43,118 nt of DNA from a virus (lineage: Duplodnaviria; Heunggongvirae; Uroviricota; Caudoviricetes). A model generated the notes under the pieces. It ran no database searches and was not told where the DNA came from. It saw nothing but the letters and a program-made list of their open reading frames with translations. Position 1 is the first letter of the stretch. Every line of letters starts with the position of its first letter. Below, piece by piece: positions 21,153-22,457 of the stretch. A program made the position numbers and the translations under genes. The stretch lies in IMG/VR virus record IMGVR_UViG_2541047857_000011; one strand, 5' to 3'.

Positions 21153-21209
21153 AAGATCTAGCATGCTGCTGAGAACTGATGAGAACAATAAAAGAGTGTT
21201 TTTCTAAGG

Positions 21210-21242
21210 TTGACACAACACTCCATTTGAAGTGAATATAAT
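21210..21242 (+). promoter_or_regulatory. Candidate sigma70 promoter for the toxSAS gene
   Basis: TTGACA (21210-21215) and TATAAT (21237-21242); the spacer is longer than optimal, so the exact -10 is uncertain. Confidence 0.4.
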
Positions 21243-21285
21243 GATTACTTAACTGGCAAAAAAACATCCTCACTAATTGGAGCCA

Positions 21286-22377
21286 ATGGATACACGCATG
21301 TCAGACATTCTAATTACTTATGATGAACGGAAAGATAAATTTGAGTCCTATGCCCTTACTCTTAAATCGTTATTAACCACGTTAATTCGCAATGAAAAAA
21401 TTTCAATTCACTCACTTGAATCAAGAGTTAAAACAAAAAAAAGCCTTGAAGGTAAGATTAATAAAAAGGGAAAATACAAGTCTATAGATGATATTACTGA
21501 TATCGTTGGTATCAGGATCATCACACATTATGCTGATGATGTTGATAAGATAGCTGCTATAGTTGAAAAGGAGTTCACCATTGACCAAGAGAACTCTATT
21601 GATAAAAGAACCTCAATTGCGCCTGATAAATTTGGTTACCTATCACTTCATTATATAGTAACTTTAAACTCAACCAGAACAAACTTAAAAGAATATGAAG
21701 TATATAAAAACATCAAAGCCGAATTACAAATACGATCAATCCTTCAGCATGCCTGGGCGGAGATTGAACACGACATTGGTTATAAGTCGGCCACAGGACT
21801 GCCTAATGAAATAAGAAGATACTTTTCACGCTTAGCTGGTCTTTTAGAAATGGCCGATGATGAATTTATTAAAATCAGAAAAAAGATTTCTGAACGGCAG
21901 AAAGAGGTTGCAAAAGAACTAGAGCAAGGAACTAGTGATTCAGTTTTAGATATTTTCACTTTGGATGAATTCTTAAACACAAGTCGAATTATGAGTGAAC
22001 TTTCAGAAGAGATAAAAGAAAAAACAGGAATCACAGTACATGGCCGATACAAGGATAAAGATTTGGGATACCTACTAAATGGTTTAAACCTAGCCAACAT
22101 AACTACAATAGAACAACTCAATCAAAAACTCTCACAAATGAAAAAGCAGATCGTAGATAGAATATTCTGCTTCGGAGAACCATTTATTAATTATTGCAGA
22201 GAAACCCCCATGCCAAAAGAAGCTCTTTTGAGTTATTTATGTCAAATTATCGTTGCGTTTCAAAACTCACCTTCGTTAGAATCTGAATTTAATAACAAAG
22301 CAGGTTTAAATCTGAAAAACAGCAATATCTCCGATTTTTTCTCGAATATAAGAGAAAACATAAGCACACAACCTTAG
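21286..22377 (+). CDS. RelA/SpoT-homolog toxin small alarmone synthetase with C-terminal extension (CapRel-like fused toxin-antitoxin)
   Basis: Synthetase motifs DIVGIRIITHY, YLSLHYIV and ELQIRSILQHAWAEIEHD in the N-terminal half, then a ~100-aa C-terminal domain; AT-rich; inserted between V and S on the opposite strand. Start could be ATG 21286 or 21298; the track start 21277 is TTG. Confidence 0.75.
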   Translation: MDTRMSDILITYDERKDKFESYALTLKSLLTTLIRNEKISIHSLESRVKTKKSLEGKINKKGKYKSIDDITDIVGIRIITHYADDVDKIAAIVEKEFTIDQENSIDKRTSIAPDKFGYLSLHYIVTLNSTRTNLKEYEVYKNIKAELQIRSILQHAWAEIEHDIGYKSATGLPNEIRRYFSRLAGLLEMADDEFIKIRKKISERQKEVAKELEQGTSDSVLDIFTLDEFLNTSRIMSELSEEIKEKTGITVHGRYKDKDLGYLLNGLNLANITTIEQLNQKLSQMKKQIVDRIFCFGEPFINYCRETPMPKEALLSYLCQIIVAFQNSPSLESEFNNKAGLNLKNSNISDFFSNIRENISTQP

Positions 22378-22406
22378 CTTTAGTTTTAACGTATTCTAAC
22401 AGAAGA

Positions 22407-22432
22407 CTGCTGCCGGTAAGCACCGGCAGCAG
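22407..22432 (-). terminator. Hairpin terminator between the convergent toxSAS and S genes
   Basis: Perfect 11-bp stem CTGCTGCCGGT-AAGC-ACCGGCAGCAG; T-rich tract on the minus-strand side only. Confidence 0.5.
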
Positions 22433-22457
22433 CGATGAGGTGTCGGGAATGGCACAA

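What the first reader, a model, noticed from the sequence alone, without database searches (positions are those of the whole stretch)
21210..22435. CapRel-like fused toxSAS (RelA/SpoT-homolog) inserted between baseplate gene V and tail gene S
The 360-aa ORF carries the hallmark synthetase motifs of small alarmone synthetases and toxSAS toxins, plus a C-terminal extension of about 100 aa. That is the architecture of fused toxSAS toxin-antitoxin proteins such as CapRel, which sense phage capsid protein and pyrophosphorylate tRNA. It is on the opposite strand to the late genes, AT-rich, with its own promoter-like elements and a hairpin terminator. This inter-operon gap is not one of the two classical P2 cargo hotspots.
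Basis: partly seen in the sequence, partly recalled or inferred. Interest (0 to 1): 0.55.

Follow-up and report, generated by a model that had tools for sequence, protein, structure and literature searches.

The report
Prophage alarmone-synthetase gene with novel tail
A P2-like prophage of E. coli carries a single intact gene for a RelA/SpoT-type pyrophosphokinase fused to a fast-evolving helical domain of unknown fold. It is probably an untested one-protein anti-phage switch that resembles CapRel in logic but does not belong to that family.

Summary
An intact 359-aa ORF (21298-22377, + strand, 33% GC against 54-60% flanks) lies alone between P2 genes V and S. It has every RelA/SpoT synthetase active-site residue.

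It is not a CapRel.
- By sequence and fold its N-terminal 210 aa are closest to the RelQ/RelP (p)ppGpp synthetases. CapRelSJ46 scores E=0.2 and TM 0.36.
- Its 150-aa C-terminal domain is all-alpha. It matches no Pfam family, solved structure or viral model, and has no pseudo-zinc-finger and no conserved YXXY motif.
- It also lacks the YejK-like partner gene that defines PANGU/GRel systems.

The family is large: 952 clusters at 50% identity, at least 592 species, PHROG 9640 'unknown function'. It has no conserved neighbour gene. All 12 contexts examined were prophages or defence-type islands.

In six enterobacterial genera its homologues sit in this same V-S gap. The catalytic domain diverges at about the rate of the virion genes (59-79% identity). 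The C-terminal domain diverges much faster (23-41%) and carries an excess of non-synonymous changes in the nearest allele.

The gap is the documented P2 'orf30' variable locus.

Best reading: a single-protein sensor-effector for abortive infection, more likely making alarmone nucleotides than modifying tRNA. No function has been tested.

The parts
21298..22377 (+). Complete coding sequence of the SAS-CTD protein (359 aa plus stop). Alternative upstream starts are ATG 21286 and TTG 21277.
   Evidence: ORF list. RefSeq start in E. coli S88, WP_001280130.1. Homologue N-termini MSxIL.... Full-length match to phrog_9640.
21298..21927 (+). N-terminal RelQ/RelP-like synthetase domain (aa 1-210). It includes the long helix aa 170-210 that corresponds to the C-terminal helix of RelQ. 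Invariant residues are R43 K45 S49 K53 D68 R73 Y114 E142 H158.
   Evidence: Pfam RelA_SpoT. NCBIfam YjbM positions 17-198 of 201. PDB phmmer and profile searches. Foldseek. Invariant columns. Residue roles from RelP (PMC5794853).
21928..22374 (+). C-terminal domain (aa 211-359): nine alpha-helices. It is specific to this family and hypervariable.
21153..21297 (.). Divergent intergenic region between the V start (21152, - strand) and the SAS start. It holds TTGACA-N21-TATAAT (21210-21242, + strand).
   Evidence: Sequence. Pattern search. Promoter scan negative on the + strand. Partial conservation with Klebsiella.
21160..21189 (.). Decayed copy of the S-operon terminator hairpin next to the V start. 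Together with the intact hairpin it brackets the inserted gene.
   Evidence: Alignment with the empty-site phage 11W and with the right flank. The same arrangement has an intact hairpin in Klebsiella. Weak fold.
22406..22433 (.). 12-bp GC-rich hairpin. It is the backbone terminator of the R-S (O) operon on the - strand and a possible bidirectional stop for the SAS gene.
   Evidence: Terminator scan. Fold -23.7 kcal/mol on both strands. Homologous hairpin in phage 11W with an empty gap.
21435..21442 (+). A8 homopolymer inside the ORF (codons 46-48). A one-base deletion here inactivates the gene in one of 14 E. coli genomes.
   Evidence: Sequence. Pseudogene annotation in CP062865. Deletion at ORF nucleotide 138.

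Best explanation
The gene is a moron carried at the orf30 locus of a P2-like prophage. It encodes a self-contained sensor-effector protein.

Shown:
- The N-terminal 210 residues are a catalytically intact RelA/SpoT-type pyrophosphokinase of the RelQ/RelP kind.
- The C-terminal 150 residues are a helical domain found only in this family.
- There is no partner gene.
- Homologues live in prophages and defence-type islands, and in this same V-S gap across six enterobacterial genera.
- The C-terminal domain diverges far faster than the enzyme.

Inferred:
- In the lysogen the enzyme is held inactive, either by its own C-terminal domain or by RelQ/Pag1B-like oligomerisation.
- A product of a superinfecting phage binds the variable C-terminal domain and releases the enzyme.
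- The enzyme then transfers pyrophosphate from ATP to a purine nucleotide, making (pp)pGpp or (pp)pApp and draining ATP/GTP. tRNA CCA ends are a less likely acceptor.
- Growth stops and the infection is aborted, which protects the lysogen population and the resident prophage.
For: Enzyme:
- Pfam RelA_SpoT E 2e-21.
- All donor-site and catalytic residues and the G-loop Tyr are invariant in 114 homologues. Their roles are mapped from RelP.
- The best sequence and fold matches are the RelQ/RelP (p)ppGpp synthetases.
- Basic residues K103 and R104 before the G-loop are invariant. Alarmone synthetases have an acceptor-phosphate patch, which is smaller in tRNA-targeting FaRel2 (PMC11782079). No tool result ties K103/R104 to that patch; the assignment is my inference from their position.

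Single-gene module:
- The island holds one ORF.
- No neighbour gene is conserved across 79 loci from many phyla.

Mobile or defence context in all 12 contexts examined:
- The window itself (V-S gap).
- V-S gap of P2-like prophages in Klebsiella, Serratia, Cronobacter, Citrobacter, Yersinia and one further genome.
- A Bacillus island with HsdR, McrBC, Abi_C and RES.
- Pseudomonas islands with AAA_15 or SMC-type ATPases.
- A lambdoid immunity region.
- A portal remnant with methylases.
- In addition, 61 IMG/VR viral contigs carry a homologue, and PHROG 9640 matches full length.

Sensor-like evolution of the C-terminal domain:
- Mean pairwise identity is 23% against 59% for the N-terminal domain.
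- Identity to the window protein is 23-41%, against 59-79% for the N-terminal domain and 48-82% for flanking virion proteins.
- In the nearest allele the N-terminal domain has 7 synonymous and 1 non-synonymous change. The C-terminal domain has 1 synonymous and 6 non-synonymous (Fisher p=0.010). Omega is about 0.04 against 1.5.

Retention: the gene is intact in a prophage whose gene A is split by an IS and whose int is frameshifted. A homologue is intact in a heavily decayed P2-like prophage.
Against: - No functional data exist. No paper in the searchable library treats this family.
- PADLOC matches only the catalytic half of a candidate family, PDC-S33.
- The acceptor substrate cannot be read from sequence.
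- Autoinhibition could not be examined, because inter-domain geometry and PAE of the model were not available. pTM is 0.69.
- The non-synonymous excess rests on 15 substitutions in one lineage. In a second pair omega for the C-terminal domain is only 0.20. Relaxed constraint is therefore an alternative to diversifying selection.
- The gene is rare in E. coli: 14 of 5,426 complete genomes, one of them frameshifted.
- It is absent from all 50,697 deposited phage genomes.
- No canonical promoter was found.
Confidence: 0.5

Rival explanations
1. The first reader's mechanism is right even though family membership fails. The protein is a fused toxin-antitoxin. Its C-terminal domain blocks the ATP site in cis. 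A phage structural protein releases it, and the enzyme then pyrophosphorylates tRNA 3' CCA ends and stops translation.
For: - A lone gene combining a synthetase with a variable C-terminal domain in a prophage is the CapRel logic (PMC9712102).
- The window protein's N-terminal domain is mildly basic, pI 8.5.
Against: - There is no significant sequence similarity to CapRel or other tRNA-targeting toxSAS in the PDB.
- Global fold match to 7ZTB is poor.
- There is no pseudo-ZFD and no conserved YXXY motif.
- The nearest relatives are nucleotide-acceptor enzymes.
- The family median pI of the N-terminal domain is 6.2, so there is no conserved basic surface.
Confidence: 0.2
2. It works like PANGU type I. 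The protein is an inactive oligomer that needs a nucleoid-associated protein of the YejK family to bind its C-terminal domain and switch it on when a phage degrades the chromosome. Here the partner would be the host's own chromosomal YejK, acting in trans.
For: - It has the same three-part architecture as Pag1B/GRel: synthetase, long helical linker, C-terminal domain.
- Pag1B is also non-toxic alone and makes pppGpp (10.64898/2026.04.06.716658).
- The RelQ-like helices used for tetramerisation are retained.
- The C-terminal domain is mildly acidic: net -4, pI 5.0.
Against: - No YejK/NA37 gene lies in the window or in any of 95 homologue loci. The tblastn search used detects YejK relatives down to about 23-33% identity. 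Pfam-annotated neighbourhoods show none either.
- The C-terminal domain is not strongly or consistently acidic: family net charge ranges from -16 to +8.
- It is hypervariable among enterobacteria (23-41%), whereas YejK is conserved (92% between E. coli and Klebsiella).
- In the preprint, E. coli's own YejK did not replace Pag1A.
Confidence: 0.07
3. It is a lysogenic-conversion gene rather than a defence gene. It would be a regulated (p)ppGpp synthetase that tunes host physiology (stress tolerance, persistence, virulence of ExPEC lineages) or prophage maintenance and induction. The C-terminal domain would be a regulatory or oligomerisation module under weak constraint.
For: - Its closest relatives are housekeeping (p)ppGpp synthetases.
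- The carriers include ExPEC strains S88 and MS7163.
- Other P2 morons alter host fitness without a defence role, for example neaT (PMC3573123).
- In one pair omega for the C-terminal domain is 0.20, which is compatible with mere relaxation.
Against: - It recurs in defence-type islands and prophage moron sites across phyla.
- The nearest allele pair shows a non-synonymous excess in the C-terminal domain.
- A family-specific domain that diverges faster than every flanking phage gene is unusual for a metabolic regulator.
Confidence: 0.15

Closest known systems
RelQ/RelP (SAS1/SAS2, YjbM/YwaC) small alarmone synthetases of Firmicutes
   Same: - They are the best sequence matches (E 1e-15 single sequence, 1e-18 profile) and the best fold matches (TM about 0.75 over about 200 residues).
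- All ATP-site and catalytic residues and the G-loop Tyr are shared.
- The C-terminal helix that forms the RelQ tetramer interface is present.
- There is a G-loop proline, as in RelP.
   Different: - This protein has 150 extra C-terminal residues forming a separate domain.
- It scores far below the YjbM equivalog cutoff: 73.6 against 320 bits.
- It is encoded on prophages and islands rather than as a core gene.
- It is AT-rich relative to its host.
CapRelSJ46 and other fused CapRel toxSAS (PDB 7ZTB, 9ERV)
   Same: - A single polypeptide combines a RelA/SpoT synthetase domain with a C-terminal domain.
- It is prophage-encoded and has no separate antitoxin.
- The C-terminal domain is the least conserved part.
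- Total size is similar: 359 against 373 aa.
   Different: - There is no significant sequence similarity.
- The C-terminal domain is all-alpha rather than a pseudo-zinc-finger three-stranded sheet.
- There is no conserved YXXY motif.
- Global superposition is poor.
- The catalytic domain is nearer to nucleotide-acceptor enzymes.
PANGU type I effector Pag1B / GRel toxSAS (bioRxiv 10.64898/2026.04.06.716658)
   Same: - Synthetase domain, alpha-helical linker, then a C-terminal domain of no known family.
- About 330-350 aa.
- Pag1B is a pppGpp-making enzyme that is inert alone and switched on through its C-terminal domain.
   Different: - PANGU is bicistronic with a YejK-like NAP gene, and none accompanies this family.
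- The C-terminal domain here is only mildly acidic.
- Sequence relationship to Pag1B could not be tested, because no sequence was available.
P2 orf30 and the other P2 morons (old, tin, Z/fun)
   Same: - Same insertion point between S and V.
- Transcribed against the late operons.
- AT-rich.
- Non-essential single gene (PMC3091744).
   Different: - The protein is unrelated.
- The orf30-type 261-aa gene occupies about a quarter of sampled E. coli V-S gaps, whereas this gene occupies under 1%.

Membership tests
RelA/SpoT homologue (RSH) synthetase superfamily, small alarmone synthetase class | RelA_SpoT synthetase domain above the curated threshold | tested here: met
   PF04607 E 1.9e-21, 76.9 bits against a cutoff of 27.
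RelA/SpoT homologue (RSH) synthetase superfamily, small alarmone synthetase class | ATP-donor site, Mg-binding Asp, catalytic Glu and G-loop Tyr present | tested here: met
   R43 K45 S49 K53 D68 R73 Y114 E142 H158 are invariant in 114 sequences. They were mapped on RelP R78 K80 S84 K88 D107 R112 Y151 E174 H190 through the RelQ alignment.
RelA/SpoT homologue (RSH) synthetase superfamily, small alarmone synthetase class | No hydrolase (HD) domain and no long-RSH regulatory domains | tested here: met
   RelA_SpoT is the only Pfam domain found. Length is 359 aa.
RelQ/RelP housekeeping SAS | Reaches the NCBIfam YjbM equivalog cutoff; single domain of about 210-230 aa | tested here: not met
   73.6 bits against a cutoff of 320. 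There is an extra 150-aa domain.
RelQ/RelP housekeeping SAS | Homotetramer; GDP/GTP acceptor | not testable with these tools
   This needs SEC-MALS and enzymology.
CapRel (fused toxSAS toxin-antitoxin) | Sequence relationship to CapRel proteins | tested here: not met
   7ZTB/9ERV score E 0.2 (14 bits) with the single sequence. They are absent at E<=0.01 with the family profile.
CapRel (fused toxSAS toxin-antitoxin) | C-terminal pseudo-zinc-finger domain (three-stranded antiparallel sheet plus helix) with helical anchors | tested here: not met
CapRel (fused toxSAS toxin-antitoxin) | Conserved YXXY motif that plugs the ATP site | tested here: not met
   There is no conserved YXXY column. Only 34 of 114 C-terminal domains contain any YxxY.
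CapRel (fused toxSAS toxin-antitoxin) | Single gene, no separate antitoxin; variable C-terminal region; prophage-borne | tested here: met
CapRel (fused toxSAS toxin-antitoxin) | N-terminal domain toxic alone and neutralised in cis; triggered by a phage capsid protein; pyrophosphorylates tRNA | not testable with these tools
   Experimental only.
PANGU type I (Pag1A NAP + Pag1B/GRel) | Effector architecture: synthetase, helical linker, C-terminal domain | tested here: met
   AF2 model: core, helix 170-210, helical C-terminal domain. Description of Pag1B.
PANGU type I (Pag1A NAP + Pag1B/GRel) | Adjacent YejK-like (NA37) gene in an operon | tested here: not met
   tblastn with YejK finds nothing in the window or in 95 loci, and the search is sensitive to about 23-33% identity. 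No NA37 appears in the Pfam-annotated neighbourhoods.
PANGU type I (Pag1A NAP + Pag1B/GRel) | Strongly acidic, DNA-mimicking C-terminal domain | tested here: inconclusive
   Net charge -4, pI 5.0. Family median -3, range -16 to +8. Surface electrostatics were not available.
PANGU type I (Pag1A NAP + Pag1B/GRel) | Sequence homology to Pag1B / assignment to the GRel subfamily | not tested
   No Pag1B or GRel sequence or HMM was obtainable. The supplements of PMC7229694 are not held. Plasmid yejK neighbourhoods sampled had other effectors.
Moron at the P2 orf30 variable locus | Lies between S and V, is non-backbone, and alternative cargo occupies the same point in related phages | tested here: met
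   P2 annotation. Empty gap in phage 11W. At least four alternative genes in E. coli prophages. Literature: PMC3091744, PMC6823313.
PHROG 9640 (unknown function) | Full-length profile match | tested here: met
   E 1.9e-200, profile positions 4-365 of 365.

The most novel reading that the evidence does not exclude
This is a third, previously unrecognised architecture of RelA/SpoT-based immunity. It would be a widespread single-protein system (hundreds of species, many phyla). Its RelQ-like alarmone synthetase would be gated by a new all-helical sensor fold that reads phage proteins directly. It would have been carried and diversified for a long time at the orf30 locus of P2-like phages, making that locus a true third defence hotspot.
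Probability: 0.4. Interest if true: 0.7.

Novelty: new variant of a known kind. Interest (0 to 1): 0.58.

Why it matters
Two uses of RelA/SpoT enzymes in phage defence are known so far:
- CapRel, which reads phage proteins with a pseudo-zinc-finger and hits tRNA.
- PANGU/GRel, which needs a nucleoid protein and makes pppGpp.

A lone-gene family with a different sensor fold would add a new trigger-recognition module. It could also give a simple one-protein model for how alarmone synthetases are switched on.

It would also turn the neglected S-V (orf30) gap of P2-like phages into a searchable third cargo site. Its other occupants (261-, 347- and 168-aa proteins) are likewise uncharacterised.

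The matched pairs of conserved enzyme and divergent C-terminal domain in six genera are ready-made material for domain-swap and trigger-mapping experiments.

Tried and rejected
- **Partner gene or RNA inside the island:** none found. No ORF fits the 145-nt and 28-nt spacers. The 113-aa antisense ORF is broken in homologues. The only Rfam hit is a sub-threshold miRNA model.
- **Conserved neighbour across 79 loci:** none found.
- **Shuffling of the C-terminal domain into other proteins:** rejected. The profile search finds the domain only at the C-terminus of this architecture or in short fragments.
- **Resemblance of the C-terminal domain to a solved or viral structure:** none found.
- **Fold search against afdb50:** the library was unavailable.
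- **Classification into the Atkinson/Hauryliuk SAS subfamilies:** supplements are not held, and the main text does not describe GRel.
- **Finding a gRel gene beside plasmid-borne yejK for direct comparison:** the two neighbourhoods sampled carried Arc/ParB and PAPS-reductase effectors instead.
- **dN/dS at deeper divergence:** dS is saturated.
- **Canonical sigma-70 promoter on the + strand:** not found.
- **Literature search for the accession, for PDC-S33 and for GTP pyrophosphokinase in P2-like prophages:** nothing found.
- **RelP structure paper PMC5836137:** not held.
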